NCBI GenBank assembly: GCA_043756785.1
Contig: JAYUQK010000046.1
Span: forward strand, 1-31,970
Length of the DNA stretch: 31,970 nt
Direction: 5' to 3'
Origin: Candidatus Lloydbacteria bacterium
Lineage (GTDB): Bacteria > Patescibacteriota > Minisyncoccia > Phycocordibacterales > UBA6899
Shown here: piece by piece, positions 7,780-28,001 of the stretch
Layout of the letters: the number at the start of each line of letters is the position of its first letter
How positions within the stretch are numbered: the stretch's first letter is position 1
Program-made: the position numbers and the translations under genes
Notes under the pieces: generated by a model
What the model saw: only the letters and a program-made list of their open reading frames with translations
What the model was told of the DNA's origin: nothing
Databases searched by the model: none

Positions 7780-10314
7780 ATGAAAAAACGCAAACAGAGG
7801 AGCTTGAGGATTTTACACTCAATAAAAATACTCATTATTGTGTCGCTTATTGCGAGCATTTTCTTCTTGAGCGCATTGCTCGTTTGGGCGGCATCCATAG
7901 AAATCCCTGACTTCAGTCTCTTTGAAACACGTAAGGTTTCTGAGTCTACAAAAATTTACGACCGCACAGGAAAAATACTTCTCTATGACGTACACAAAGA
8001 TGTGCGGCGCACACTTGTGCCATTTGATGCTATTAGTCCTTATGTAAAGAATGCGGCAGTGGCAATAGAGGACGATCAATTTTATCAACACCACGGCATC
8101 ATCTTAAGGGCGATACTGCGCGCAACACTCGTGAATCTCGGGCTTCGTGAGGGATACGCTGGTCAGGGAGGCTCCACTATTACTCAACAGGTGATAAAAA
8201 ACGCCCTACTTACGAATGAAAAAACAATCGCACGCAAAGTGAAAGAGTGGATACTCGCGGTGAAACTCGAGCGTGTCCTCACAAAAGAACAGATATTAAA
8301 CCTTTACCTGAATGAGGCTCCATACGGGGGGAATATTTACGGAGTTGAAGAAGCGAGTATGTCGTACTTCGGTAAAAGCGCGAGCACAGTCTCGCTCGCT
8401 GAAGCAGCGTATCTTGCTGCGCTCCCTCAATCCCCAACACGCTACTCTCCGTATGGAAACAATATTGACCTACTTCAAAAACGCAAAGACGCAGTGCTGC
8501 AAAAAATGAAGGACTTAGGTTCCATCACTTTGGACGAATACACCAAAGCACGGGAAGAAAAAGTGTTTTTTATACCCCAAGAAGAGCGTGGGATGCGTGC
8601 GCCGCACTTCGTTATGTTTGTGAAAGAAAAACTTGTAGAACTTTACGGCGAGGAAACACTCAATGAAGGTGGGCTTCGTGTTATCACCACTATTGATATG
8701 GAACTGCAGGCTAAAGCAGAAAAAGTAGTAAAAAAATACGCGGACGAAAATGAAAAAATGTTTAATGCCTCAAACGCTGCACTCGTGGCGATAGATCCAA
8801 AAAATGGGGAAATACTCACCATGGTCGGATCACGAGATTATTTTAATATTAAAAACGAGGGTAACTTCAATATTGCACTCGCAAAAAGACAACCTGGGTC
8901 TGCATTTAAACCTTTTGTTTATGCAGCAGGACTTGAGGCTGGGTACACTGACCAAACAGTGCTTTTCGACGTACCTACGCAATTTTCTACGCGCTGTGAC
9001 ACAGAGGGGAAGCCACTCAATCCAGCCAACGACGAAAATATTTGCTATATGCCGGAAAACTACGACCAGCAATATCGTGGTCCGATATCCCTACGGAATG
9101 CGCTCGCTCAGTCGATCAACATACCCGCAGTAAAGATGCTTTATCTCGTAGGACTCGACCACGCAATCGACATCGCGGAACGTATGGGTATTACGACGCT
9201 CGGAAAAAAAGAACGCTACGGTTTAACCCTTGTGCTAGGTGGTGGCGAGGTGTCACTACTCGACATGACGAGCGCGTATGGAGTTTTTGCAAACGACGGA
9301 AAGAGGACTCCGTATACAGGAATACTCCGCGTTGAAGACACTCGTGGGTTGGTGCTCAGTATTTTTACCACGACATCCTCACAAGTAATAAACCAAGAAG
9401 TCGCACGAAAAATGTCTGACATGCTCTCGGACAACATTGCGCGCACACCCGCATTTGGCGCACAATCATTTCTTAACTTTGAAAACAGAGAAGTCGCAGT
9501 AAAAACAGGAACCACAAACGACTACCGCGACGCTTGGATTGTTGGCTACACACCATCACTCGCTGTTGGCGCATGGGCGGGAAATAACAACAATACTCCG
9601 ATGGAGAAAAAAGTTGCGGGTTTTATTATCGCACCACTCTGGAATGCTTTTTTCACAGAGGCATTCCCCACACTTCCTCCTGATGACTCTTTTATCAAAC
9701 CACAGCCAACGGCGCAGACCATAAAGCCCGCACTGCGTGGTGTTTGGTATGGTGGGACAACATATCAAATCGATACCGCATCAGGAAAACTCGCAACAAA
9801 CTACACTCCTCAAGAATTTATAGAGGAACGCGTTGTGCCAAATCCTCATGAAATTCTTTATTGGGTAGACAAAAAAAATCCCACAGGTCCGATACCACAA
9901 AACCCATACGAAGATGCTCAGTTCTTGCTCTGGGAAACACCAGCGCAGCGGTGGATCGCTCAAAACGGACTCCCCGCAAAGGCGTGGGTAAATATACCCA
10001 GTAGTTTTGATGACTTCCACAAACCTGAATCTGCGCCACAACTGCGTATTATTGAGCCAAATGCATCAACGACATACCTTTTTAGTCAGAAAATACTTGT
10101 CTCCCTCAATGTATCAAGTACACATGCAATAGACCGTGTTGATTTTTCAGTCAATGGTGTGTTCCTTGGGTCTACACGCGAAATGCCATATGTGTTTGCG
10201 TTCGTCCCAAACACCATAATAGGGATTCAGGATAAAAATGAATTACGAGTGAGTATATATGATGTGGTGGGCAATAAAACCGAAGACGGTGTCTTTTTCA
10301 CTGTGTCACCGTGA
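7780..10314 (+). CDS. Class A penicillin-binding protein (PBP1A family; transglycosylase + transpeptidase + C-terminal Ig-like domain)
   Basis: N-terminal TM, GT51 motifs AIEDDQFYQH and GGSTITQQ, transpeptidase motifs SAFK, SIN and KTG, and a C-terminal beta-rich 'VDFSVNGVFLG...PYVF' domain. Confidence 0.95.
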   Translation: MKKRKQRSLRILHSIKILIIVSLIASIFFLSALLVWAASIEIPDFSLFETRKVSESTKIYDRTGKILLYDVHKDVRRTLVPFDAISPYVKNAAVAIEDDQFYQHHGIILRAILRATLVNLGLREGYAGQGGSTITQQVIKNALLTNEKTIARKVKEWILAVKLERVLTKEQILNLYLNEAPYGGNIYGVEEASMSYFGKSASTVSLAEAAYLAALPQSPTRYSPYGNNIDLLQKRKDAVLQKMKDLGSITLDEYTKAREEKVFFIPQEERGMRAPHFVMFVKEKLVELYGEETLNEGGLRVITTIDMELQAKAEKVVKKYADENEKMFNASNAALVAIDPKNGEILTMVGSRDYFNIKNEGNFNIALAKRQPGSAFKPFVYAAGLEAGYTDQTVLFDVPTQFSTRCDTEGKPLNPANDENICYMPENYDQQYRGPISLRNALAQSINIPAVKMLYLVGLDHAIDIAERMGITTLGKKERYGLTLVLGGGEVSLLDMTSAYGVFANDGKRTPYTGILRVEDTRGLVLSIFTTTSSQVINQEVARKMSDMLSDNIARTPAFGAQSFLNFENREVAVKTGTTNDYRDAWIVGYTPSLAVGAWAGNNNNTPMEKKVAGFIIAPLWNAFFTEAFPTLPPDDSFIKPQPTAQTIKPALRGVWYGGTTYQIDTASGKLATNYTPQEFIEERVVPNPHEILYWVDKKNPTGPIPQNPYEDAQFLLWETPAQRWIAQNGLPAKAWVNIPSSFDDFHKPESAPQLRIIEPNASTTYLFSQKILVSLNVSSTHAIDRVDFSVNGVFLGSTREMPYVFAFVPNTIIGIQDKNELRVSIYDVVGNKTEDGVFFTVSP

Positions 10315-15607: not shown

Positions 15608-16735
15608 TTATTTTAGTGGGCAGTTGCTGTATGCTCCTGGTGGAAGTGTGACGCCTGCCTTGTTCTTTCCTGTGCAAAACCAATATGGTTGGCCCACCTC
15701 ACAGACATGCCAATGGTTTCCTTCGTCTGTAAACCAAAAATTATTCAACAAATAACGACATGGATAAAAGGAGACCGCAGATTGCGTCGCACTACTACGG
15801 ATATACGCATCGAGTGCGGGTGTTTTTCTGAGGTCAAAAATAGGAGAATTTGGTTTATGTGTTGCATGCCCACTCTCTGTCCCACCAGTGATTACCACTG
15901 GAGGCGGAAGCGCTTTTATCGCAGCAATTGCAGAACTCGGCATTCCTTCAACGTTTATATACCCTGCTTTCAAGCAGTTTGAAATACCCGCAGGACAAGG
16001 TGGCTGCTTTATGGCCACAGGGATAGTCCCAAGCTGACAAAGGTTATTACCGCAAATACTATTACGGACAGCCGCCTCTCCAGACGAGGGCCCAGGTGGG
16101 GGGTTCCCTGGAGGTGGTGGGGGGACACCAACGGGTTGAGGATAGACATAGAAACAGTCAATCGTTGTACTAGGTGGTGTATAAACAATAATTCCCCCAA
16201 GTGCTACCTGCCCCTTCTTCCCCTCTATGCATTGTTCTATGGTTCCCCATTGTGGAGAGTTTAAAATGGGACCACTGGCAGAGTCTTTATAGCGATAGTA
16301 AAATCCCGGTTTTTTTGGTAGCGGTGCATTCGCTGCGGTTGTTGTTGCTGTTGGAGTAGTTGCGATGGCGGGGAGGCCAAGTAATGCAACATCGCTCGAA
16401 AGTAGCTGTGTGTTGATGGTATTTAATATAAGCCATGAGGATATAGCGAGGAGCAGCCCAAATATTGCGCTCGTAATACAATCCTTTGATGCACTTTTTT
16501 GTGATACCGACGGAGAGCCAATAAGCTGAATGCCGCATATGACGGTCATCACCACCGCGAGTATCCCTGCGACTCCTATTGTTACCTGCACAATACCCTC
16601 GAGGTATTGTGCGAGGGTGACATTTGGCCCCCCCAATGGCCCCAGTGGTGCGAGGAGTGTATAGGTCGATGGAGCAGCGAGTGCCACCACTGGAAGTAGA
16701 GTGAATAGCGCGAGTGTAAATATTTTTTTCATCAT
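15608..16735 (-). CDS. CPR-type (VirB2/TrbC-like) pilin fused to a Pro-rich linker and a Cys-rich probable M15/Hedgehog-like Zn peptidase domain, 375 aa
   Basis: The real start is MMKKIFTLALF (16735). Signal peptide, then YTLLAPL and two TM helices (GVAGILAVVMTVICG...AIFGLLLAISSWLILNTIN). The C-terminal part has ITGGTESGHATH...FDLR and EGNHWH. Confidence 0.8.
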   Translation of the reverse strand: MMKKIFTLALFTLLPVVALAAPSTYTLLAPLGPLGGPNVTLAQYLEGIVQVTIGVAGILAVVMTVICGIQLIGSPSVSQKSASKDCITSAIFGLLLAISSWLILNTINTQLLSSDVALLGLPAIATTPTATTTAANAPLPKKPGFYYRYKDSASGPILNSPQWGTIEQCIEGKKGQVALGGIIVYTPPSTTIDCFYVYPQPVGVPPPPPGNPPPGPSSGEAAVRNSICGNNLCQLGTIPVAIKQPPCPAGISNCLKAGYINVEGMPSSAIAAIKALPPPVVITGGTESGHATHKPNSPIFDLRKTPALDAYIRSSATQSAVSFYPCRYLLNNFWFTDEGNHWHVCEVGQPYWFCTGKNKAGVTLPPGAYSNCPLK

Positions 16736-16752: not shown

Positions 16753-18132
16753 TTATTTCCTGATACTCCCCGCAGCGTCTCCCGCCTCTTCTATTGTGGG
16801 AGGGGTAACACTGTCTCCCTCCGTGTTTTCTGGTGCCTGCTTTATGCGCATAGACCAAAGAAAGCTCGTGTGCTTGTCGGTAAAGAATAGAAATTTTTCA
16901 GCACGATCAACAAAGGGCATTGTAGCATCGAGGCTCTTTTCCACATCCTGCTTAGGGTCCCCAAGGAGCCTAATATCAGTGGTGCGCGCGTCGACAGCCC
17001 AAAAGGTGTCGTCAAACGAAAGTAACCCTTGGTACCACTCATCAGGGATCATCTTTTTTTCAGTGTTCGTAAATGATGCACAATAGAGGCGTGCACCCCC
17101 CGCTGCCCATACACATTTTTCTGGAAGAGTAGTGAGGGGGAGTGCCTGCTCGTGGGTGACGAGCCCCTCATCCCCGTTATACCCCTTCTCGCTATATATC
17201 CCCACCGTGGCATTTCCGTTGATGTTCTCACCAAAGAGCACGTCGCCACCACTCACCATCCCGAGCGTGGTGAGTCCGTTTTTCTCACGCGCGATACGCG
17301 TCATCGACTTATCTGTGGGGTTGTAGAGATAGGAAAATCCTGCTGTGGCCGCAGAGGGCTTTGTGGTGAGTATTATTTTTCCGTCATTCAATATTTGTGG
17401 AAGCCATTCAGCAAAGGCACTCTCAAGTACTAGCTTGGGGTCTTTTATTGAGTCGAGCTGTACCACGTATCCAAGTACCCCCACCTCAGTAGGGAGAAGG
17501 TAAAACAATTTCGTGCCGTCTGGTGAGATGGAGACTGCACTGATATTGTCGGAGAGGTATTTTCCGCGAATCTCCCCTACCGCATCAGAGGAGTTTTGAG
17601 TACTACTTGGGAGGGAGATCTCACTGAGATATGTTTTTATTGTGTCGTACCCAAGCGAGCGGTCGAGATAGCGGAGCACGACAGTATCCCCATTGTTTCC
17701 AAAATACGCTTCGTACACCTGAGGGATAAGCGTATTAGTGAGCTGGCGCGTCGCAGCAGATACTGTGTCGAATTCAAATATCGTACCTCGCTCGCGCAGT
17801 ACATAGCGGACGAGTGTCTTACCGCTCTCCTCGAGCACCGTCGCACCTGCGATGGGTTTGTCGGTGATTTGCCGGAAAAGAGGCAGAAGCATATCGCTAC
17901 CTGGGATCGGCTGCCGCACACCAGGGTCAAGAGAGCCTGTGTTTGTGGCACTACTGCGCAGTGTGTCAGGGAGCACCTCTCCGAACGGTAGTACTTTTCC
18001 AATAGAGATGGCGATGGGTGAGTCTTTTGCAAAGCGCAGTACAAGAAAAGCCACAAGGGCGAGGATGAGGATGAAGGCAATTCCTCCAATGATGACCCAC
18101 TTTATGATTCCACTTTTGTTTTCTTCCTGCAT
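16753..18132 (-). CDS. Membrane-anchored beta-propeller-like (TolB/PD40-like) extracellular protein, 459 aa
   Basis: The start is MQEENKSG (18132), followed by one N-terminal TM and beta-rich repeats including 'SISPDGTKLFY' and 'PEKCVWA...LYCA'. Confidence 0.75.
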   Translation of the reverse strand: MQEENKSGIIKWVIIGGIAFILILALVAFLVLRFAKDSPIAISIGKVLPFGEVLPDTLRSSATNTGSLDPGVRQPIPGSDMLLPLFRQITDKPIAGATVLEESGKTLVRYVLRERGTIFEFDTVSAATRQLTNTLIPQVYEAYFGNNGDTVVLRYLDRSLGYDTIKTYLSEISLPSSTQNSSDAVGEIRGKYLSDNISAVSISPDGTKLFYLLPTEVGVLGYVVQLDSIKDPKLVLESAFAEWLPQILNDGKIILTTKPSAATAGFSYLYNPTDKSMTRIAREKNGLTTLGMVSGGDVLFGENINGNATVGIYSEKGYNGDEGLVTHEQALPLTTLPEKCVWAAGGARLYCASFTNTEKKMIPDEWYQGLLSFDDTFWAVDARTTDIRLLGDPKQDVEKSLDATMPFVDRAEKFLFFTDKHTSFLWSMRIKQAPENTEGDSVTPPTIEEAGDAAGSIRK

Positions 18133-18145
18133 GGTGATGGAGATA

Positions 18146-19138
18146 TTATTCGGCAGTAAATGAAATTTCAGTGCTTGCCCGCGCCTCTTGGAGTATGCGT
18201 TTTGGGTTTTGTATACGGAGCGACACCCCATACGTAGGACTGCTGCCCTCAGGCTTCACGAGGGTGAGGTATTGAGGCGAGAGTCCTGGTGAGGTGTATT
18301 TGCGGTCTACTTCCCATGTGTAAATAAGATTGCCGTTCAACAAGTTGTCCGAGGAAAAAAAGTATGGTACTGCGTAGATAGTAGCCTCCGTCTCTTTTGA
18401 GGAAAGCGTTTTGATGATGGGTTTACGTAGCTCTACGCCCAAGAGTGGGTCACGCTCGTAGAATACAATTTTTGCCTCACCCGCTGAGATGCTCGCATTC
18501 TTCACCCCCACCCAGTCGGTGCCCAAGAGGCGCACTTCTGCGGTGATGGGCACTGGTGTGCCTGCGTATCCCATGGGTATGACGACGCTGTTCTTCCCTT
18601 GCGCTTCTCCGAGGCCTTGGACGCGGTTGTACGTCCATTTATAGTAGTAGTCTTTGGGGTTGCTCGTGAGTGCACTGAAGCGAGGTATCGCCGTCACGCG
18701 CACAAGGCTTTTGAAAGTGGGGAGTGCTTTGCCTTTGTAAAATGGAGGAGTGTAGGTCTGTGCTTCCCATAGGAGGTCTACCTCCGCAGGAGCTATCACA
18801 AATTGTTTGTCGAGCTTGTCCCCTGCGGCAGTGATGATGATGACGTCGATAATTGTTTTTTCTCCGAAATAAGGGGTAGTGATGGTAATTTCTTTTTCTG
18901 CAATGCCGTTTTTGACGAACTCTTTGTTTACTATCCATGCGATATCCGCCGTATTGAGGTCGACCGCAAAAGAGTTGAGTCGTACGAGCACTTGCTCGAG
19001 AGCCCCCGGAGACTTGGGTGTGGTAACAAAATTAATGAGATCAACCGGCGCCGCCATGGAAATAATCGGCGTGGCGACTAGTGTAAAAAATACCCCCATA
19101 CCCACAAGTAAAACACGTTTTTTAAGACCAAGATGCAT
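18146..19138 (-). CDS. Secreted beta-rich (Ig/PKD-like) protein, 330 aa
   Basis: Signal peptide ending ISMA|AP and repeated beta-sandwich-like segments (IAWIVN, YYYKWTYN, LIYTWEVD). Confidence 0.8.
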   Translation of the reverse strand: MHLGLKKRVLLVGMGVFFTLVATPIISMAAPVDLINFVTTPKSPGALEQVLVRLNSFAVDLNTADIAWIVNKEFVKNGIAEKEITITTPYFGEKTIIDVIIITAAGDKLDKQFVIAPAEVDLLWEAQTYTPPFYKGKALPTFKSLVRVTAIPRFSALTSNPKDYYYKWTYNRVQGLGEAQGKNSVVIPMGYAGTPVPITAEVRLLGTDWVGVKNASISAGEAKIVFYERDPLLGVELRKPIIKTLSSKETEATIYAVPYFFSSDNLLNGNLIYTWEVDRKYTSPGLSPQYLTLVKPEGSSPTYGVSLRIQNPKRILQEARASTEISFTAE

Positions 19139-19169
19139 ACAATAATTTTACCCTATTTTACCCACGCGC

Positions 19170-19646
19170 TCAACCGCGTCTGTGAACAGCATACCGAAGC
19201 GCATGGGCGATAAGGTTGTCCTTGCGAATGGCATTTTCAAGGATACTGATGAGCACAAACATGACTGTAGTCATTGGGAGAAGCTCTAATACGGGGAAAG
19301 ACTCGATAAAAAAAGCAACGACACGAATAACAATCCGCTTGATCTGCGCCTTCATATGTAGACCACCATGTGTATAAAAATACACATGGGTGAGTATAAA
19401 CACGGCCAATGTTATACCGATACCTAAAATCCAAAAAAATATAGCGAGCGGAATCGTCACAATTGCAGCGGTAAACGCCAGCTTCATCGCAAAAAACATA
19501 AAATCGCTTGCATCATCGAGAATACAAACACCGAGCGTCATCCACCACAAAACCCCACCAAGTTTTTCGGGTGGGGAAGCCCCTGCCTCTTGGTCCGGAG
19601 AAGAGTATTCAGTTTGGTTCACATCTTGTTGTCTCGGTGAGGCCAT
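19170..19646 (-). CDS. Integral membrane protein (3-4 TM) downstream of virB4, 158 aa
   Basis: Polar N-terminus, hydrophobic core and IESFPVLELLPMTT motif. It starts 8 nt after virB4. Confidence 0.8.
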   Translation of the reverse strand: MASPRQQDVNQTEYSSPDQEAGASPPEKLGGVLWWMTLGVCILDDASDFMFFAMKLAFTAAIVTIPLAIFFWILGIGITLAVFILTHVYFYTHGGLHMKAQIKRIVIRVVAFFIESFPVLELLPMTTVMFVLISILENAIRKDNLIAHALRYAVHRRG

Positions 19647-19654
19647 AGAAATTT

Positions 19655-21454
19655 TTACCCCTGCGTCGCCAAAAGTTCTGCTTTTGCCTTTGCGATGGCG
19701 AGCATTTGGGCGGGGTCGGAGGAGACGATCTGGTCTTCGGTGTAGGATGCATAGACTTTTATTGCCACATGCTTTAGTCCTGCGAAAAAGAGCCCTTCTC
19801 CCACTCCAGACTCAAGGAGGAGGTATTTTTCCTCGTCTGTGAGGTGAAAAGTGGATTGAACGAGGTCGATAGTGGTGGGCGACTGCTTTAGGAGTATTTG
19901 TATGGAGGAATTTGTGAGGATGGGGAGCCCGTACGGGGAGCGCAAGAAGTCATTCACGTCTTGGGTAATGGTGGCCACTCCGAGGAAGTATTTGCGCCCA
20001 CGCTTGGCGAGACCAAAAAGGAAGGAGGCAGTATCTTCAGACTTCATCATCCACCACGCTTCGTCGACGACGAGGAGGCGCTTGCGGAGCTCCTTGCGTA
20101 CTGCGGTCCAGATGTGGTGTGTGACGATGTATACGGCGACGGGCTTCAGCTCGTCTTCCATGTTGCGCACAGAAAATACCGTAAAGCGCTTCGTAATGTC
20201 GACGTTGGTCGGTTTGTTGAGAAAGCCAGACCATGTACCCTTGGTATATTTTTCGAGGCGCTGGAGGAGTGACTCTGTGCCGTCCATTCCCGATAGTACG
20301 AGCTCGAAGTCGGAGAGGAGTGGCGCTTCGATATCCGCAAAATTGACGTCCCCGGTGATATCCCTCAGTGCATAGGTTTCAGCAATGGCACGGTCTACGA
20401 TAGAGTCTTCTTCTGGGGTGAGTCCGCCGAGCATGATACGAAAGAGTCCTACAAGAAAAATGATATTCGAGCGGAGCACGTCTTCTCCAGACTCATCCTC
20501 ACGCGGTGCGGGTAGGTCGAATGGATTGATATGGTGCTCTGAGTTGAGTGAAATATTAAAATATCGCCCTCCGGTAGCCTCTGCGAGGAAGCCATACTCA
20601 GACTCAGGGTCGATCACAATGACGTCCGCATCGAACATGAGTGTACGGATGATCTCGAGTTTTGTTGAATACGATTTACCAGATCCTGAAACAGCAAAAG
20701 TGACCGAGTTGTAGTTGGGCATTCCAAAGCGGTCAAAGAGAACCAAGGAGGCATTGTGGCGGTTTATACCCCAGAGAATACCTTTGTCTGACGTGAGGTC
20801 AAATGAAACAAAAGGGAATATCGACGAGAGGGGTGCAGAATTCATTTTGTAATGCACCGCGAGCTCATCGGTCATAATGGGAAGTACGCTGCGAAATGCC
20901 TGCTCTTGCTGGAATATTGCGGGCTTTAAATAGACGAGTTTTGCATCGAGGATAGACTTGATCTCACTCTCTGCTTTGTCGAGCTCCCCTTTTTCATTTG
21001 CGTAGACGGTAATGTAGAGCCCCACGTCAAAGAGTCGTTCTTGCGCCTGCTGGAGTTTGTCACGCAGGCCCTCGAGGTCTTGGTATGCGATATCAAGCAC
21101 GGGGTCACGCACAAAGCCTTTACGCTCGCGCTCGTTGATCTGGCTCTGCACCTCGGCAACTTTTTTCTGAAATGAGCGCAGTGCAAGCTCTGTCTCGATG
21201 GGGTGGATCATGATGGACACATCGTATACACGGTCGAGATTAATGATGGGCGTGAACCAGTCTTGGGAGAGGAATCGTGGGTAGGAGATCACAAAGAGTG
21301 TGCGTGCGATTTTGTCGCCTATATAAATTTCTTTTGGAGTTATTTTTATTGCTGCAGGTGCGAGAATATCCTTCATGTCGAGGTTTGTTGCCTCAAAAAT
21401 ATCTGAAGGAAGGGCACCAGTATTAAGATTTTCAAGTTCTTTTCGGTCTGTCAT
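19655..21454 (-). CDS. virB4: VirB4-like type IV secretion ATPase (C-terminal/main part), 599 aa
   Basis: GILWGIN, Walker A AVSGSGKS, VIVIDPESEY, INPFD, Walker B LLVVDEAW, KRGRKY and ITQD. It follows prgI. Confidence 0.88.
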   Translation of the reverse strand: MTDRKELENLNTGALPSDIFEATNLDMKDILAPAAIKITPKEIYIGDKIARTLFVISYPRFLSQDWFTPIINLDRVYDVSIMIHPIETELALRSFQKKVAEVQSQINERERKGFVRDPVLDIAYQDLEGLRDKLQQAQERLFDVGLYITVYANEKGELDKAESEIKSILDAKLVYLKPAIFQQEQAFRSVLPIMTDELAVHYKMNSAPLSSIFPFVSFDLTSDKGILWGINRHNASLVLFDRFGMPNYNSVTFAVSGSGKSYSTKLEIIRTLMFDADVIVIDPESEYGFLAEATGGRYFNISLNSEHHINPFDLPAPREDESGEDVLRSNIIFLVGLFRIMLGGLTPEEDSIVDRAIAETYALRDITGDVNFADIEAPLLSDFELVLSGMDGTESLLQRLEKYTKGTWSGFLNKPTNVDITKRFTVFSVRNMEDELKPVAVYIVTHHIWTAVRKELRKRLLVVDEAWWMMKSEDTASFLFGLAKRGRKYFLGVATITQDVNDFLRSPYGLPILTNSSIQILLKQSPTTIDLVQSTFHLTDEEKYLLLESGVGEGLFFAGLKHVAIKVYASYTEDQIVSSDPAQMLAIAKAKAELLATQG

Positions 21455-25664: not shown

Positions 25665-27893
25665 TTAATATCCCGTAGGGTCAGCGGCTGCTCCTGCGGT
25701 CACAATGACCTCAGGGCTTGTAGAGCTAAACTTCATTTCGTCGTATATCATGAGCATTGTGGCCTGTGCCCAGTCGGTGGTCTGTGCGGAAATACCAAAG
25801 TAGCCAATGTCGATAACGTCATAGAATTCACGCACAAGCTCGTTGACTGCCGTCGGTGCGTTTGCTATCCCCGCTTCGGAGTAGCCGAGGAGGCCTCCGG
25901 GGCTGGTATTGAGCTCGACCGACTGGTCCTCGAGGTCGCCTTGGGCTCCACCGTCGAGCGTATTGCCGTCCTGTACCGCCTCGAATCCCGCACTTGACGA
26001 GCGCGTGACGTTGTCTTGGTTTTGAAATTGTGGGGTGACTGCGGTGCCGAGAGTGTCTAGACAGTAAGGGTCGTCTGCGGTGCCAGAGCACTCGATGTCT
26101 GCGCGTGCTCCCGTATTTGCAAATTCGTCCCGCTTTGCCTGCTCTTGGCGCGCTAGGCGACCTGCAGTTTCTGCATCGAGCTGCGTTGCTGCGCCAAGTG
26201 GGGAGTTTTGTGGGTTTGAAAGAAGGTCTATGAACATATCCATGCCACCTACCCCGCTCGGGTCGTTGAAGTTATCTGAGAATTTTCCAAAGTCGTTCGG
26301 GTTCGCAAGTCCACATTGTGTTCTTGATGGGGCTGAAAACATTGGGTCTTCCACACTGAGCTTGTTGTTGCGGGCGCTATTTGCTGCCGTATCGAGCCGC
26401 CAAGGCTCACAAATTCCAAGCGACCCTATGGGGTCACCTGAGGCGGGGTCCCCAGCTGCTTGGGCGATGGTGTGCTCAAGGGTGCGACCTTTCACGTTGT
26501 AGATACTCTGGCTCGCATTGGTGTTGTAGACCGCTTCGGTCGAGACGACGCTGTTGTTCACCACTTCATTGCCCGACTTTGCCCAATTGAGGTTTGCGGC
26601 GGAAATCTTACCAACGAGCTGATTGTTGAGCTGCTTTGCCTGTGCGTCGGCGATGTATGTCTTGAGCATTGAGTGGATCTGAATGCTCAAGCCCAGCTTT
26701 TCCCACTCGACAAGCTCTTGCAGCAAACAGCGCAGCGATGCGCTGTTATTCACCTTCACGGATATTGTCGTGGGTATTGTGCTACTGGCACCACTGCTGG
26801 CATCCGTCCACGAACCCTCCGTGTATGCTTCTGGGTCAAGACCACCAACGCCACCGAGTATGTACGCAGGCTTTGTTGCGCACTTTGATTTTGCCACCCC
26901 ACCAGGGTTCCCTCCCGCGATGGTGTCTCGGATGGAGTCTGGTGCACCAGTCAAGGCCGAGTTCACTTGCTTGGCGTATGTGTCAAAGTTCTTTGAGTAT
27001 GTCGTAAACTTAGCAATAAGCTCAAAGTCTTTCACGGGTACGAATGGCCCCCCGAGTACTCCAGAGATAGCCGCTGATATTGATGAGGCAACCCCTGGGC
27101 CGAGTGCAGAAAGTACTGAAGAGGAAAGTGAGCCAAGGACGGATGCGGGCAAAGAGGAGAAAACCTCTGAGCCCAGTGACCCAAGCACGCCTGGGGGAAG
27201 TCCTGATAAAACACCATTGAGTGCTGTGCCTGAAAGCCCTGAAAAAATACTTGAAGGAAGACTTGATAAAAGACCTGAAGTGATACTAGGGAGAACAGCC
27301 GAGAGTTGTGTCGCAGTGAGACCTGCAAGGTTGGTTAGCCCAGCAAGTCCAACGCTGCTCATGCTGTTGATGAGCGAAGTGATTTGCGCTGCTGGTACAG
27401 CAGAAAAAAGAGTTGAGGAGAGTCCCGAAAGTAGCGCTGGAGGCATGCCGTCTAGTGCTGCGGCGAGTGCTGTGGTTGGGAGTGCCGTCAGGCTCGTGGT
27501 GAGGCCACCAAGGTTTGTCGGTAATAGCGCACTGAGAGTACCAGTGAGCTGGCTTACTGAAAAATTTAAAAATGTATCAGGTGGCAGAGCATTGAGAACA
27601 CTTTGTGCCGATGAGTCGAGGATGAGGTCGATTTGTGCTGGAGAAAGCAGTGCAAAGTTAGCCGTGGTGGGGTTGAAGGTGGGGCTTGCGGGGTCCCATG
27701 TGGCTAGGGTGGCGAGTGGGAGAGTGGCAAGAAAGTTTGTGAGTATCGTTGTGGGCAGTGCATTAATAGTACTTGTGAGGTCCCCCGCAAGTGCAGTGGA
27801 TGGAAAAAGCATAAGGAAGCCGAGAATGGTTCCCGTGGCAGACTTTTTTAGCTGTGCATGTGTCAAATACGCCCCACCAAAGAAGATAGTCAT
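25665..27893 (-). CDS. Large secreted protein: L/S/G-rich 8-residue repeats + PVxD (VirB5/TrbJ-like) motif + Cys-containing domain, 742 aa
   Basis: The start at 27893 is supported by TATACT 7 nt upstream. Signal ends PSTALA|GD, followed by about 245 aa of repeats, GGPFVPVKD and six Cys. It ends 4 nt before virB6. Confidence 0.8.
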   Translation of the reverse strand: MTIFFGGAYLTHAQLKKSATGTILGFLMLFPSTALAGDLTSTINALPTTILTNFLATLPLATLATWDPASPTFNPTTANFALLSPAQIDLILDSSAQSVLNALPPDTFLNFSVSQLTGTLSALLPTNLGGLTTSLTALPTTALAAALDGMPPALLSGLSSTLFSAVPAAQITSLINSMSSVGLAGLTNLAGLTATQLSAVLPSITSGLLSSLPSSIFSGLSGTALNGVLSGLPPGVLGSLGSEVFSSLPASVLGSLSSSVLSALGPGVASSISAAISGVLGGPFVPVKDFELIAKFTTYSKNFDTYAKQVNSALTGAPDSIRDTIAGGNPGGVAKSKCATKPAYILGGVGGLDPEAYTEGSWTDASSGASSTIPTTISVKVNNSASLRCLLQELVEWEKLGLSIQIHSMLKTYIADAQAKQLNNQLVGKISAANLNWAKSGNEVVNNSVVSTEAVYNTNASQSIYNVKGRTLEHTIAQAAGDPASGDPIGSLGICEPWRLDTAANSARNNKLSVEDPMFSAPSRTQCGLANPNDFGKFSDNFNDPSGVGGMDMFIDLLSNPQNSPLGAATQLDAETAGRLARQEQAKRDEFANTGARADIECSGTADDPYCLDTLGTAVTPQFQNQDNVTRSSSAGFEAVQDGNTLDGGAQGDLEDQSVELNTSPGGLLGYSEAGIANAPTAVNELVREFYDVIDIGYFGISAQTTDWAQATMLMIYDEMKFSSTSPEVIVTAGAAADPTGY

Positions 27894-28001
27894 ATACTCT
27901 AGTATACCTGTAATTTTATTTATACTATAGTCTCTACGCAGTACTTCCTTGTGGCACACCATGGTGATGATTTGTGTTAAATAATAAAAGTTGCGCATAT
28001 G

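What the first reader, a model, noticed from the sequence alone, without database searches (positions are those of the whole stretch)
15608..16735. VirB2-like pilin fused to a probable Zn-dependent cell-wall peptidase (M15/Hedgehog-like fold)
Seen: signal peptide plus two-TM pilin, a T/A- and Pro-rich linker (PPPPPGNPPPGP), then a domain with ten Cys. That domain carries GH-AT-H-x7-D (H 15857-15859, D 15833-15835) and E-G-N-H-W-H (15707-15724). Known: LAS-family M15 DD/LD-peptidases use H-x6-D and H-x-H Zn ligands with a catalytic Glu, and T4SSs normally encode their wall hydrolase (VirB1/CwlT/TcpG) as a separate gene. Inference: the hydrolase is carried on a pilin subunit, so the filament itself could cut peptidoglycan, possibly the host's. 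The H-x7-D spacing is non-canonical.
Basis: partly seen in the sequence, partly recalled or inferred. Interest (0 to 1): 0.8.

Follow-up and report, generated by a model that had tools for sequence, protein, structure and literature searches.

The report
Pilin-anchored wall peptidase of T4SS
An ultra-small (Patescibacteria/CPR) bacterium ends its type IV secretion operon with a gene that joins a pilin-like membrane hairpin to an unannotated, probably zinc-dependent cell-wall peptidase domain, which may be the "missing" wall-cutting enzyme of these secretion machines; that it sits on a filament is not shown.

Summary
All motif coordinates are exact.

The C-terminal domain has no Pfam, NCBIfam or PDB sequence match. 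It defines a family of at least 185 clusters with near-invariant E287, H290, H293, D301, E338, H341 and H343. Its AlphaFold model (pLDDT 95) matches only LAS / Hedgehog-DD-peptidase enzymes, and weakly (MepA Z 5.1-5.2, ShhN, VanX, VanY-like, phage L-Ala-D-Glu peptidases). Ligand geometry could not be measured.

Context supports a peptidoglycan role:
- 100 of 113 relatives carry the same pilin hairpin.
- The gene is syntenic in the virB4 operon beside yidC/dnaA in 20 of 21 loci.
- In related genomes the same slot holds pilin+SLT, or pilin+this domain+SLT.
- Close relatives add a pilin-SLT paralogue next door.
- Actinomycetota homologues are fused to PG_binding_1.

Best reading (0.6): a T4SS-dedicated, pilin-tethered peptidoglycan metallopeptidase that stands in for VirB1. 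Filament display and host-wall cutting are untested (about 0.2). This scan has reported the same kind of fusion before on other genomes. I found no paper describing it. I rate it a new variant of a known kind.

The parts
15608..16735 (-). Whole gene, 375 aa plus stop: pilin hairpin, middle domain and LAS-like domain. It is the last gene of the virB4 operon.
   Evidence: Orthologues at 38-100% identity. Syntenic in 20 of 21 related loci.
16673..16735 (-). Sec-type signal peptide, aa 1-21 (cleavage after VALA inferred).
   Evidence: Read from the sequence. Hydrophobic peak at aa 10-19. Cleavage site is inferred, not predicted by a tool.
16403..16615 (-). VirB2-like two-helix membrane hairpin, aa 41-111 (PF18895 T4SS_pilin).
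   Evidence: Pfam 27.3 bits against a 26.6-bit cut-off, aa 45-107. AF2 helices 41-73 and 77-111.
16319..16402 (-). Thr/Ala/Pro-rich disordered linker, aa 112-139.
   Evidence: pLDDT below 50 for aa 117-132. Composition read from the sequence.
16124..16318 (-). Small beta-beta-alpha-beta-beta middle domain, aa 140-204, with Cys169 and Cys194. Function unknown. It is shared with the pilin-SLT paralogue of relatives.
   Evidence: AF2 pLDDT 85-89. R148, N159, S160, C169, C194 and F195 are invariant in A1. The paralogue match covers this region. No Atlas lead.
16085..16123 (-). Pro-rich linker, aa 205-217 (PPPPPGNPPPGP).
15698..16084 (-). LAS / Hedgehog-DD-peptidase-like core domain, aa 218-346.
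   Evidence: AF2 pLDDT 95, pTM 0.89. VIA: MepA Z 5.1-5.2 and 14-15 LAS chains among the best 30 rows. AFDB 'Peptidase M15', E 2e-3. Atlas M15_3 cluster, TM 0.53.
15833..15889 (-). Motif 1, T-G-G-T-E287-x-G-H290-x-x-H293-x7-D301: proposed first His and Asp metal ligands plus accessory Glu and His.
   Evidence: Invariant or near-invariant in A1 and A2. Aligns to S-H-x6-D of the Actinomycetota clade and to the S-E-H...D of VanY (weak).
15707..15724 (-). Motif 2, E338-G-N-H341-W-H343: proposed catalytic Glu and third metal ligand. Which of the two His is the ligand is unresolved.
   Evidence: Near-invariant. Lies on strand 341-346. Position 343 is Asp in Actinomycetota.
15611..15697 (-). Clade-specific C-terminal extension, aa 347-375, with Cys354 and Cys372.
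   Evidence: Most family members end right after HWH at profile position ~121. Present only in the A1 subfamily.
16753..21454 (-). Upstream operon partners: beta-propeller-like 492 aa (16753-18231), Ig-like 330 aa (18146-19138), TM protein 158 aa (19170-19646), VirB4 ATPase 599 aa (19655-21454).
   Evidence: Pfam TraG P-loop / CagE_TrbE_VirB for VirB4. The others have no Pfam hit but are syntenic in relatives.

Best explanation
The gene encodes the dedicated peptidoglycan peptidase of this bacterium's chromosomal, origin-proximal type IV secretion system.

Proposed steps, all inferred unless marked otherwise:
1. After Sec export and signal-peptide cleavage, a VirB2-type two-helix hairpin holds the protein in the cytoplasmic membrane with both ends outside. 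This may dock it to the T4SS the way pilin subunits dock.
2. Two flexible linkers and a small spacer domain carry a disulfide-stabilised C-terminal domain into or through the wall.
3. That domain is a very divergent member of the LAS / Hedgehog-DD-peptidase metallopeptidase superfamily.
4. H293, D301 and H343 (or H341) would bind Zn. E338 would act as general base. H290 and E287 would be accessory residues.
5. It would cleave peptide stems or cross-links of peptidoglycan and so open the wall for the secretion apparatus. This is the job done by VirB1, or by CwlT, PrgK and TraG in other T4SSs.
6. In relatives it works alongside, or is replaced by, a lytic transglycosylase on the same kind of hairpin.

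Shown: domain architecture, family conservation, synteny, and module exchange or co-occurrence with SLT and PG_binding_1.

Inferred: metal binding, catalysis, bond specificity, topology, and whether the wall cut is the cell's own or the host's.
For: Architecture:
- PF18895 hairpin.
- Hairpin, linkers, middle domain and C-domain in the full-length AF2 model.

Family:
- 185 clusters at E<=1e-3.
- Near-invariant E287, H290, H293, D301, E338, H341, H343, plus Cys.

Fold:
- The domain model has pLDDT 95.
- In an all-against-48,161-chain VIA search the top hit is MepA (Z 5.1, 109 residues aligned). Fourteen of the best 30 rows are LAS enzymes: ShhN/Hh x3, Zn DD-peptidase 1lbu, VanX, LdcB, DacB, Ply500, LysB4, RB49 and T5 L-Ala-D-Glu peptidases, VanXYg and VanXYc. 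A further row is the VldE zinc domain.
- Among Foldseek's 342 PDB candidates only MepA exceeds Z 2.1, at Z 5.2.
- AFDB cluster named 'Peptidase M15', E 2.3e-3.
- ESM-Atlas Peptidase_M15_3 cluster, TM 0.53.
- hhalign against a VanY profile lines up S/T-H...D and HWH. Its score of 21.5 exceeds all 150 column shuffles (mean 11.1, sd 2.2).
- The CPR clade is homologous to an Actinomycetota clade with canonical S-H-x6-D (probability 99.7%).

Peptidoglycan link:
- SLT is fused to this domain in the G178 777-aa protein, in an archaeon-labelled 370-aa protein, and in 2 of 113 family members.
- An Actinomycetota cluster carries PG_binding_1 in 100% of its members.

T4SS link:
- The gene lies in the virB4 operon next to yidC/dnaA in 20 of 21 loci.
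- Genomes of the same order fill the same slot with pilin+SLT_2 (G284), pilin + this domain + SLT (G178), or pilin-like + this domain (G211).
- Lloydbacteria-like relatives carry a pilin-SLT paralogue immediately downstream.

Precedent: in Ca. Southlakia epibionticum the essential genes just downstream of virB4 are a lysozyme/Cys-proteinase protein and a protein with an ECOD Hedgehog/DD-peptidase domain (PMC10633639 Table S2; PMC12102498).

Disulfide capacity: two DsbA-like genes in the genome.
Against: - All structural Z-scores are below the tool's own noise guide: the typical best Z for unmatched models is 7-8.
- Foldseek against PDB and Swiss-Prot finds nothing significant.
- No Pfam, NCBIfam or PDB sequence hit for this protein or its Actinomycetota relatives.
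- hhalign probability against VanY is only 5-6%, and the reversed profile scores nearly as high (18.9 against 21.5).
- H-x7-D is outside the H-x(3-6)-D rule recalled for LAS enzymes.
- A Glu (E287) may sit where M15 enzymes have Arg. This comes from a non-significant hhalign alignment, and the Arg position is recalled from memory.
- Ligand co-location could not be measured.
- The domain is patchy, found in 14 of 401 sampled genomes of the phylum, so it is not a general T4SS requirement.
- No experiment exists for any family member.
Confidence: 0.6

Rival explanations
1. The protein is a true pilin subunit, minor or tip-located, that is incorporated into a VirB2-type pilus. The filament then displays the peptidase and cuts the host bacterium's peptidoglycan at the contact site.
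For: - The hairpin passes the PF18895 threshold, and the mature N-terminus carries the family's conserved T-Y-x-L-L-A-P-L motif.
- The C-terminus of the hairpin is predicted to be outside.
- Patescibacteria are epibionts whose T4SS and pilin array are essential for growth on hosts (PMC10633639; PMC12857230).
- The enzyme module differs between genomes of one order. This would fit adaptation to different host walls.
- Homologues occur in Actinomycetota, a phylum that includes the Actinomyces host of the cultured Saccharibacterium.
Against: - No tool result bears on polymerisation.
- A 270-aa cargo on every subunit is sterically hard to reconcile with a VirB2-type helical filament (inference).
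- The genome has 8 short cargo-free pilin paralogues in two arrays that look like the structural subunits. The closest is only 25% identical to this hairpin.
- Known monoderm T4SS hydrolases act while membrane-anchored (established knowledge: PrgK, TraG, CwlT).
Confidence: 0.2
2. The domain has the LAS-like shape but is not a peptidoglycan peptidase. It could be a metal-dependent binding module or adhesin, as the Hedgehog N-domain is mainly a ligand, or a protease acting on proteins such as other T4SS or pilin subunits.
For: - ShhN chains are among the best structural matches.
- The motif differs from M15: H-x7-D, an extra His, and possibly Glu in place of Arg.
- Specificity cannot be read from the sequence.
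Against: - Seven polar residues are near-invariant over at least 127 sequences, which is typical of catalysis.
- Repeated fusion or slot-sharing with SLT, and fusion with PG_binding_1, point to peptidoglycan.
Confidence: 0.1
3. The LAS resemblance is a chance similarity of a small alpha/beta sandwich. The domain is a new fold or enzyme class, for example an amidase or another hydrolase, that happens to carry His, Asp and Glu motifs.
For: - Best Z is 5.2, under the tool's noise guide.
- Foldseek finds nothing in PDB or Swiss-Prot.
- No HMM link.
- The reversed-profile control is nearly as good as the real alignment.
Against: - LAS chains are a tiny share of the 48,161 representatives (my estimate, not counted), yet they fill about half of the best 30 rows and come from four different families.
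- MepA is the only Foldseek candidate above Z 2.1.
- Independent AFDB and Atlas hits to M15-named clusters.
- Motif order and secondary-structure placement match LAS: Asp in a strand after a His-bearing loop, and HxH on the last core strand.
Confidence: 0.1

Closest known systems
SEML1_0007 and SEML1_0006 of Ca. Southlakia epibionticum ML1 (Wang et al. 2023, PMC10633639, Table S2)
   Same: They are encoded directly downstream of virB4 in a Patescibacterial T4SS cluster next to the replication origin. SEML1_0007 carries an ECOD Hedgehog/DD-peptidase domain, and SEML1_0006 carries lysozyme-like plus Cys-proteinase domains. Both are essential by Tn-seq.
   Different: SEML1_0007 is 1113 aa with the domain at its extreme C-terminus (951-1105), and the table lists no PF18895 hairpin for it. 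Homology of its domain to the one here was not tested because I had no sequence. In this window the domain rides on a pilin hairpin of 375 aa.
T4SS peptidoglycan hydrolases: VirB1 (Agrobacterium), CwlT (ICEBs1), PrgK (pCF10), TraG (pIP501), TcpG (pCW3)
   Same: They are encoded inside the T4SS operon. The monoderm versions are membrane-anchored and often combine a glycosidase with a peptidase. Here the peptidase and SLT modules occur in one protein (G178) or in tandem genes (L062-L066) (background in PMC12102498).
   Different: Their peptidase modules are CHAP / NlpC-P60 or M23, not a LAS/M15-like domain. Their anchor is an ordinary TM helix, not a VirB2-type pilin hairpin. No sequence similarity was detected.
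LAS metallopeptidases: MepA (M74, 1tzp/1u10), VanX/VanY/LdcB (M15), Streptomyces albus Zn DD-peptidase (1lbu), Ply500 and T5 L-Ala-D-Glu peptidases, Hedgehog N-domain
   Same: These are the best and almost the only structural matches. The motif order is the same: a His-bearing loop, an Asp-bearing strand, then E-x-x-H / H-x-H on the last core strand. Like 1lbu (recalled), Actinomycetota homologues pair the domain with PG_binding_1.
   Different: Z is only 3-5. There is no HMM-level similarity. The spacing is H-x7-D rather than H-x(3-6)-D. There is an extra conserved His (H290) and Glu (E287), and four disulfides. The family has no Pfam or NCBIfam model.
Stand-alone VirB2-like pilins of Patescibacteria (Pfam PF18895; pilin arrays, PMC12102498; SEML1_0014-0019)
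   Same: Signal peptide plus two-helix hairpin, encoded near virB4. This genome has 8 such short paralogues.
   Different: Those are 100-200 aa with no cargo. This one carries about 265 aa of extracellular domains and is single-copy at a fixed operon position.

Membership tests
PF18895 T4SS_pilin (VirB2-like pilins of Patescibacteria) | Match to the Pfam model above its gathering score | tested here: met
   27.3 bits against a 26.6-bit cut-off, aa 45-107. This is a marginal pass. Orthologues P0003-P0013 also carry PF18895.
PF18895 T4SS_pilin (VirB2-like pilins of Patescibacteria) | Signal peptide followed by two long hydrophobic helices forming a hairpin | tested here: met
   Hydropathy peaks. 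AF2 helices 41-73 and 77-111.
PF18895 T4SS_pilin (VirB2-like pilins of Patescibacteria) | Encoded in or near a virB4 cluster | tested here: met
   Four genes downstream of VirB4. Syntenic in 20 of 21 loci.
PF18895 T4SS_pilin (VirB2-like pilins of Patescibacteria) | Polymerises into an extracellular pilus | not testable with these tools
   No tool addresses assembly. It has not been shown for any Patescibacterial VirB2-like protein in the papers read.
LAS / Hedgehog-DD-peptidase metallopeptidases (MEROPS M15, M74; Pfam VanY, Peptidase_M15_2/3/4) | Sequence-profile match to a family model | tested here: not met
   No Pfam or NCBIfam hit. No PDB sequence hit with profiles A1, A2 or A4. hhalign against a CPR VanY profile gives 5-6% probability.
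LAS / Hedgehog-DD-peptidase metallopeptidases (MEROPS M15, M74; Pfam VanY, Peptidase_M15_2/3/4) | Shared fold with solved members | tested here: inconclusive
   MepA Z 5.1-5.2 with 109-111 residues aligned. LAS chains make up 14-15 of the best 30 rows. AFDB 'Peptidase M15', E 2e-3. Atlas M15_3, TM 0.53. However, all Z are below 8 and Foldseek against PDB and Swiss-Prot is negative.
LAS / Hedgehog-DD-peptidase metallopeptidases (MEROPS M15, M74; Pfam VanY, Peptidase_M15_2/3/4) | H-x(3-6)-D motif supplying two Zn ligands | tested here: not met
   This protein and its CPR clade have H293-x7-D301. The homologous Actinomycetota clade has S-H-x6-D, so the deviation is a one-residue insertion.
LAS / Hedgehog-DD-peptidase metallopeptidases (MEROPS M15, M74; Pfam VanY, Peptidase_M15_2/3/4) | C-terminal H-x-H or E-x-x-H motif supplying the third ligand and the catalytic residue | tested here: met
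   E338-x-x-H341-x-H343 is near-invariant and lies on the last core strand.
LAS / Hedgehog-DD-peptidase metallopeptidases (MEROPS M15, M74; Pfam VanY, Peptidase_M15_2/3/4) | The three ligands converge on one metal site in 3D; Zn is bound; peptidase activity | not testable with these tools
   Structure prediction returns no coordinates (one search shows no model file). No experiment exists.
T4SS-associated peptidoglycan hydrolase (functional class: VirB1/CwlT/PrgK/TraG) | [quoted passage not shown] | tested here: met
T4SS-associated peptidoglycan hydrolase (functional class: VirB1/CwlT/PrgK/TraG) | Contains a recognised peptidoglycan-hydrolase domain (SLT, CHAP/NlpC-P60, M23) | tested here: not met
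   None is detected in this protein. SLT occupies the same slot, or is fused to the same domain, in relatives.
T4SS-associated peptidoglycan hydrolase (functional class: VirB1/CwlT/PrgK/TraG) | Needed for T4SS assembly or function | not testable with these tools
   The only analogy is that SEML1_0006 and SEML1_0007 are essential in S. epibionticum.

The most novel reading that the evidence does not exclude
Patescibacterial T4SSs use the VirB2 pilin hairpin as a universal carrier that loads exchangeable wall-cutting modules (LAS-like peptidase, SLT, or both) onto the pilus or its tip. The secretion filament itself would then drill through the host bacterium's cell wall, with the module swapped to match the host's wall chemistry.
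Probability: 0.2. Interest if true: 0.85.

Novelty: new variant of a known kind. Interest (0 to 1): 0.55.

Why it matters
The T4SS of Patescibacteria is essential for their epibiotic life, yet its function is unknown (PMC11665869, PMC12857230). A published survey concluded that most genomes with VirB2-like pilins lack a VirB1 homologue (PMC12102498).

This gene, its syntenic relatives, and the SLT modules that share its slot suggest that the wall-opening enzymes are there after all. They may have been missed because they are fused to what is scored as a pilin, and because one of the enzyme domains belongs to a family with no Pfam or NCBIfam model.

That gives three concrete things:
- A testable candidate for how these ultra-small cells breach a wall, their own or the host's.
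- A new, widely distributed LAS-like domain family (Patescibacteria plus secreted Actinomycetota proteins) that deserves a family model.
- A reason to re-annotate 'pilin' counts in CPR genomes.

Tried and rejected
- Sequence routes to a known family all failed: Pfam and NCBIfam on the whole protein and on sub-ranges, and PDB profile searches with A1, A2 and A4.
- A 37-aa motif segment of an Actinomycetota homologue against PDB gave only chance hits, to a dockerin and a coat protein. It did not retrieve Hedgehog. My recalled resemblance of G-H-x6-H-x2-G-x3-D to the Sonic hedgehog zinc motif therefore stays an untested lead.
- Foldseek against PDB and Swiss-Prot gave nothing.
- hhalign against a VanY profile built from 28 CPR loci gave 5-6% probability. 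Column shuffles were all lower, but the reversed profile scored 18.9 against 21.5. I treat this as weak support only.
- Peptidase_M15_3 is too rare in the phylum (2 of 151 genomes) to build a profile.
- The search for related loci with A2 failed for lack of a conserved stretch. A1 worked.
- The middle domain got no Atlas lead.
- I looked for the pilin-SLT paralogue in the window's own genome. Only the gene itself matched. An SLT fragment at the start of contig C44 is unrelated to that paralogue.
- VKOR was not found in the 90%-complete genome.
- I considered calling the 507-aa pilin protein of G337 an M15 fusion from its H-x6-D-like string. Neither Pfam nor my VanY HMM detects it, so I make no claim.
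- The C-terminal part of the G256 581-aa pilin protein stays unassigned.
Full report
**1. What is there**

Window 15608-16735 on the minus strand is an uninterrupted 375-codon ORF. It is the last gene of a co-oriented cluster and ends 15 nt from the convergent jag gene. The cluster contains, in order:
- a TSP3-repeat protein
- a 777-aa repeat protein
- a 777-aa VirB6-like protein
- three small proteins
- a VirB4 ATPase (TraG P-loop 86.5 bits, CagE_TrbE_VirB)
- a 158-aa membrane protein
- a 330-aa protein
- a 492-aa protein
- this gene

The neighbours are yidC, yidD, rnpA, dnaA and dnaN.

The genome is 0.92 Mb in 127 contigs and 90% complete. Its sampled relatives in the same phylum are 0.5-1.6 Mb. 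The closest named relatives are Candidatus Lloydbacteria, followed by Zambryskibacteria and Paceibacterota MAGs. This is therefore the origin-proximal chromosomal T4SS of Patescibacteria described in PMC12102498.

**2. Check of the observation**

The N-terminus has a Sec-type signal peptide and two hydrophobic stretches. In the full-length AlphaFold model these form one helical hairpin, 41-73 and 77-111. Pfam PF18895 T4SS_pilin matches aa 45-107 at 27.3 bits, just over the 26.6-bit threshold.

After the hairpin come:
- a disordered T/A-rich linker (pLDDT below 50 for 117-132)
- the PPPPPGNPPPGP linker at aa 205
- the C-terminal domain

The 'ten Cys' are eight in that last domain plus the two in the middle domain.

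**3. The C-terminal domain is a real, conserved, unannotated family**

It has no hit in Pfam or NCBIfam. PDB searches with profiles also found nothing.

An exhaustive phmmer search of 1.84 billion cluster representatives found 185 proteins at E<=1e-3 and 35 at E<=1e-10. In an alignment of 127 domain sequences:
- C247, G285 and D301 are invariant.
- G284, E287, H290, H293, E338, H341 and H343 are at least 90% conserved.

The core motifs are T-G-G-T-E-x-G-H-x-[TS]-H-x7-D and E-x-x-H-W-H. Most members end two residues after HWH. The last 30 residues here, with Cys354 and Cys372, are a subfamily extension.

In this subfamily the usual G-C-T-N-V cysteine is Tyr, and a new Cys (C254) appears five residues earlier. 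I read this as a shifted disulfide partner for C247; that is inference.

The genome encodes two DsbA-like thioredoxin-fold proteins. This is compatible with an oxidised extracytoplasmic domain.

**4. Fold**

With the 127-sequence alignment AlphaFold2 gives pLDDT 95 and pTM 0.89. The results from structure searches were:
- Foldseek finds nothing significant in PDB or Swiss-Prot.
- VIA-align against 48,161 representative chains puts MepA first (Z 5.1, 109 residues).
- It fills the top of the list with one superfamily: ShhN/Hedgehog (4.3, 4.0, 3.8), the VldE zinc domain (4.0), Streptomyces Zn DD-peptidase 1lbu (3.6), VanX (3.4), LdcB, DacB, Ply500, LysB4, RB49 and T5 L-alanoyl-D-glutamate peptidases, VanXYg and VanXYc. 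That is 14-15 of the best 30 rows.
- In a re-alignment of Foldseek's 342 candidates only MepA exceeds Z 2.1, at Z 5.2.
- AFDB clusters give a 101-aa 'Peptidase M15' at E 2.3e-3.
- The ESM Atlas gives a Peptidase_M15_3 cluster with TM 0.53 on the hit side.

The grouping of these entries into the Hedgehog/DD-peptidase (LAS) fold rests on established classification, not on a tool.

The absolute scores are low. The tool's own guide says Z under 8 can be a common arrangement. I therefore call the fold test inconclusive but pointing one way.

Secondary-structure placement agrees with LAS (my recollection of the LAS arrangement). The first His lies in the loop after the V-V-I-T-G-G strand. The Asp is inside the next strand. 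H-W-H is on the last core strand.

**5. Sequence-level link to M15**

I built a VanY profile from 28 Patescibacterial loci. hhalign gives only 5-6% probability.

It does align [TS]-H-x-x-G...D with S-E-H-x-G-x-A-x-D, and H-W-H with E-P-W-H. The score of 21.5 exceeds all 150 column-shuffled controls (mean 11.1, sd 2.2). A reversed profile reaches 18.9. This is weak evidence.

More informative is a clade of small secreted proteins (about 130 aa mature) found by the genome scan in Micromonospora, Promicromonospora, Nocardioides, Actinophytocola and a Streptomyces.
- They are clearly homologous to the CPR clade: hhalign 99.7%, E 4e-27.
- They read T-G-G-T-E-T-G-H-x6-H-x6-D and E-G-N-H-W-D.
- The 'non-canonical' H-x7-D of the window protein is therefore a one-residue insertion relative to a canonical-spaced sister clade.
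- Position 343 can be Asp, while E338 and H341 stay fixed.

Which of H341 and H343 is the third ligand cannot be decided. By my recollection, VanX-type enzymes use E-x-x-H, and MepA and Hedgehog types use the second His of H-x-H.

**6. Evidence that the substrate is peptidoglycan and the client is the T4SS**

(a) Of 113 full-length family members, 100 carry PF18895 and 2 carry SLT.

(b) In 20 of 21 related loci the gene sits in the virB4 operon beside yidC and dnaA. Two arrangements occur:
- VirB4-TM-Ig-propeller-gene, as in this window and the Lloydbacteria-like loci.
- VirB4-Ig-gene-propeller, as in the Zambryskibacteria and Paceibacterota loci.

(c) In genomes of the same order, the slot between the Ig-like and propeller genes holds a pilin hairpin with different cargo:
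- SLT_2 in G284 (435 aa)
- this domain plus SLT in G178 (777 aa)
- this domain alone in G211 (276 aa)
- an unassigned domain in G256 (581 aa)

(d) Five close relatives (L062-L066) have, immediately downstream, a paralogue with the same hairpin and middle domain. Its C-terminus matches the SLT model above threshold in the two loci where it passed (L062, L063) and below threshold in L065; L064 and L066 were not scanned. The window genome lacks that paralogue in the assembled 90%.

(e) An archaeon-labelled MAG protein combines SLT with this domain.

(f) An Actinomycetota cluster of structural look-alikes (TM 0.64, 120 residues, rmsd 2.8) carries PG_binding_1 in all 50 members.

(g) In Ca. Southlakia epibionticum the two essential genes just downstream of virB4 are a lysozyme/Cys-proteinase protein and a protein with an ECOD Hedgehog/DD-peptidase domain (PMC10633639 Table S2).

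Taken together, this domain occupies the niche of a T4SS wall hydrolase. It does so as the peptidase partner of a lytic transglycosylase, like CwlT, TraG or PrgK in monoderm conjugation systems (background).

**7. How it most likely works**

The hairpin is predicted to leave both termini outside. It anchors the enzyme and probably docks it to the machine. About 100 residues of linkers and spacer domain would place the catalytic domain in or beyond the wall. There a Zn site would hydrolyse stem-peptide or cross-link bonds.

All catalytic steps are inferred. Whether the target is the cell's own wall or the host's is open. I give 0.6 to the tethered T4SS peptidoglycan-peptidase reading.

It is neither supported nor excluded.
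- The genome has eight short cargo-free pilin paralogues in two arrays. The closest is 25% identical to this hairpin. These are better candidates for a shaft.
- The exchange of cargo between close relatives would suit host adaptation.
- I give this reading 0.2.

**8. Distribution and novelty**

The domain was found in 14 of 401 sampled genomes of the phylum. It is concentrated in the window's order (4 of 7 others) and in a few other families.

The papers I could search describe the pilin arrays and note that most VirB2-bearing genomes lack VirB1 (PMC12102498). They call the T4SS function unknown (PMC11665869). I found no description of pilin-hydrolase fusions or of this domain family.

This scan, however, has already reported the same kind of fusion on other genomes. 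Searches returned several follow-ups describing 'pilin-anchored zinc cell-wall peptidase' and 'swappable wall enzymes'. I re-tested two of their claims here:
- The module exchange holds within this order.
- The Hedgehog/DD-peptidase assignment holds only weakly.

Verdict: a new variant of a known kind (a T4SS-associated peptidoglycan hydrolase), with an unusual pilin-type anchor and an unmodelled LAS-like domain family.

Noticed in passing
L119:5812-6315, L096, L098, L113, L120, L133 and about 25 further loci: Free-living Actinomycetota (Micromonospora, Promicromonospora, Nocardioides, Actinophytocola, one Streptomyces) encode small secreted homologues of the domain. Mature size is about 130 aa and the motifs are T-G-G-T-E-T-G-H-x6-H-x6-D and E-G-N-H-W-D. 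They have no Pfam or NCBIfam model. An Atlas cluster of look-alikes carries PG_binding_1. This could reflect gene exchange between CPR and Actinomycetota.
   Followed up: partly
L062:7325-8554, L063:7117-8391, L065:7161-8417 (also L064 and L066): Lloydbacteria-like relatives carry a second gene directly downstream of the orthologue, with the same pilin hairpin and middle domain but a Cys-rich SLT lytic-transglycosylase domain. The window genome has jag at that position and no such paralogue in the assembly.
   Followed up: yes
L057:5897-9508 (G324): In one genome of the same order the LAS-like domain sits near the N-terminus (aa 199-338) of a 1203-aa protein encoded upstream of the VirB6-like gene. 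That is the position of the window's 777-aa repeat protein (25665-27998). It also has MgtE_N-like repeats. Several 1000-1400-aa database proteins (P0116, P0134, P0145, P0158) have the domain at a similar N-terminal position.
   Followed up: partly
G000 contigs C65:1357-2928 and C106:16066-17082: The genome has eight further short PF18895 pilin ORFs (110-200 aa) in two tandem arrays away from the virB4 operon. This matches the published 'VirB2 arrays'.
   Followed up: partly
L054:5420-8453 (G337): Two tandem pilin-cargo genes lie outside any virB4 neighbourhood. One is pilin+SLT (498 aa). The other is pilin + coiled coil + an unassigned C-terminal domain containing an H-x6-D-like string (507 aa), which neither Pfam nor my VanY HMM recognises.
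   Followed up: partly
L089, L091, L106 ('Bdellovibrionales' MAGs) and L075 ('archaeon' MAG): Contigs labelled as non-CPR lineages encode the same domain. The three 'Bdellovibrionales' contigs have it behind a pilin-type hairpin, and the 'archaeon' contig has it behind SLT. This is either mis-binned CPR/DPANN DNA or lateral transfer. I did not resolve which.
   Followed up: no
window 7780-10314 (+): A class A penicillin-binding protein (transglycosylase + transpeptidase + Big_7) lies in the window, so the organism makes peptidoglycan of its own that a T4SS would have to cross.
   Followed up: no
window 15970-15996 (aa 247-255): In this subfamily the family's near-invariant Cys of G-C-T-N-V is Tyr, and a new Cys (C254) lies five residues upstream. 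This looks like a relocated disulfide partner for the invariant C247.
   Followed up: no
G000:C44:2-121: An SLT-domain ORF is cut off by the start of contig C44. It is unrelated to the pilin-SLT paralogue of relatives, and its N-terminus is unknown.
   Followed up: partly
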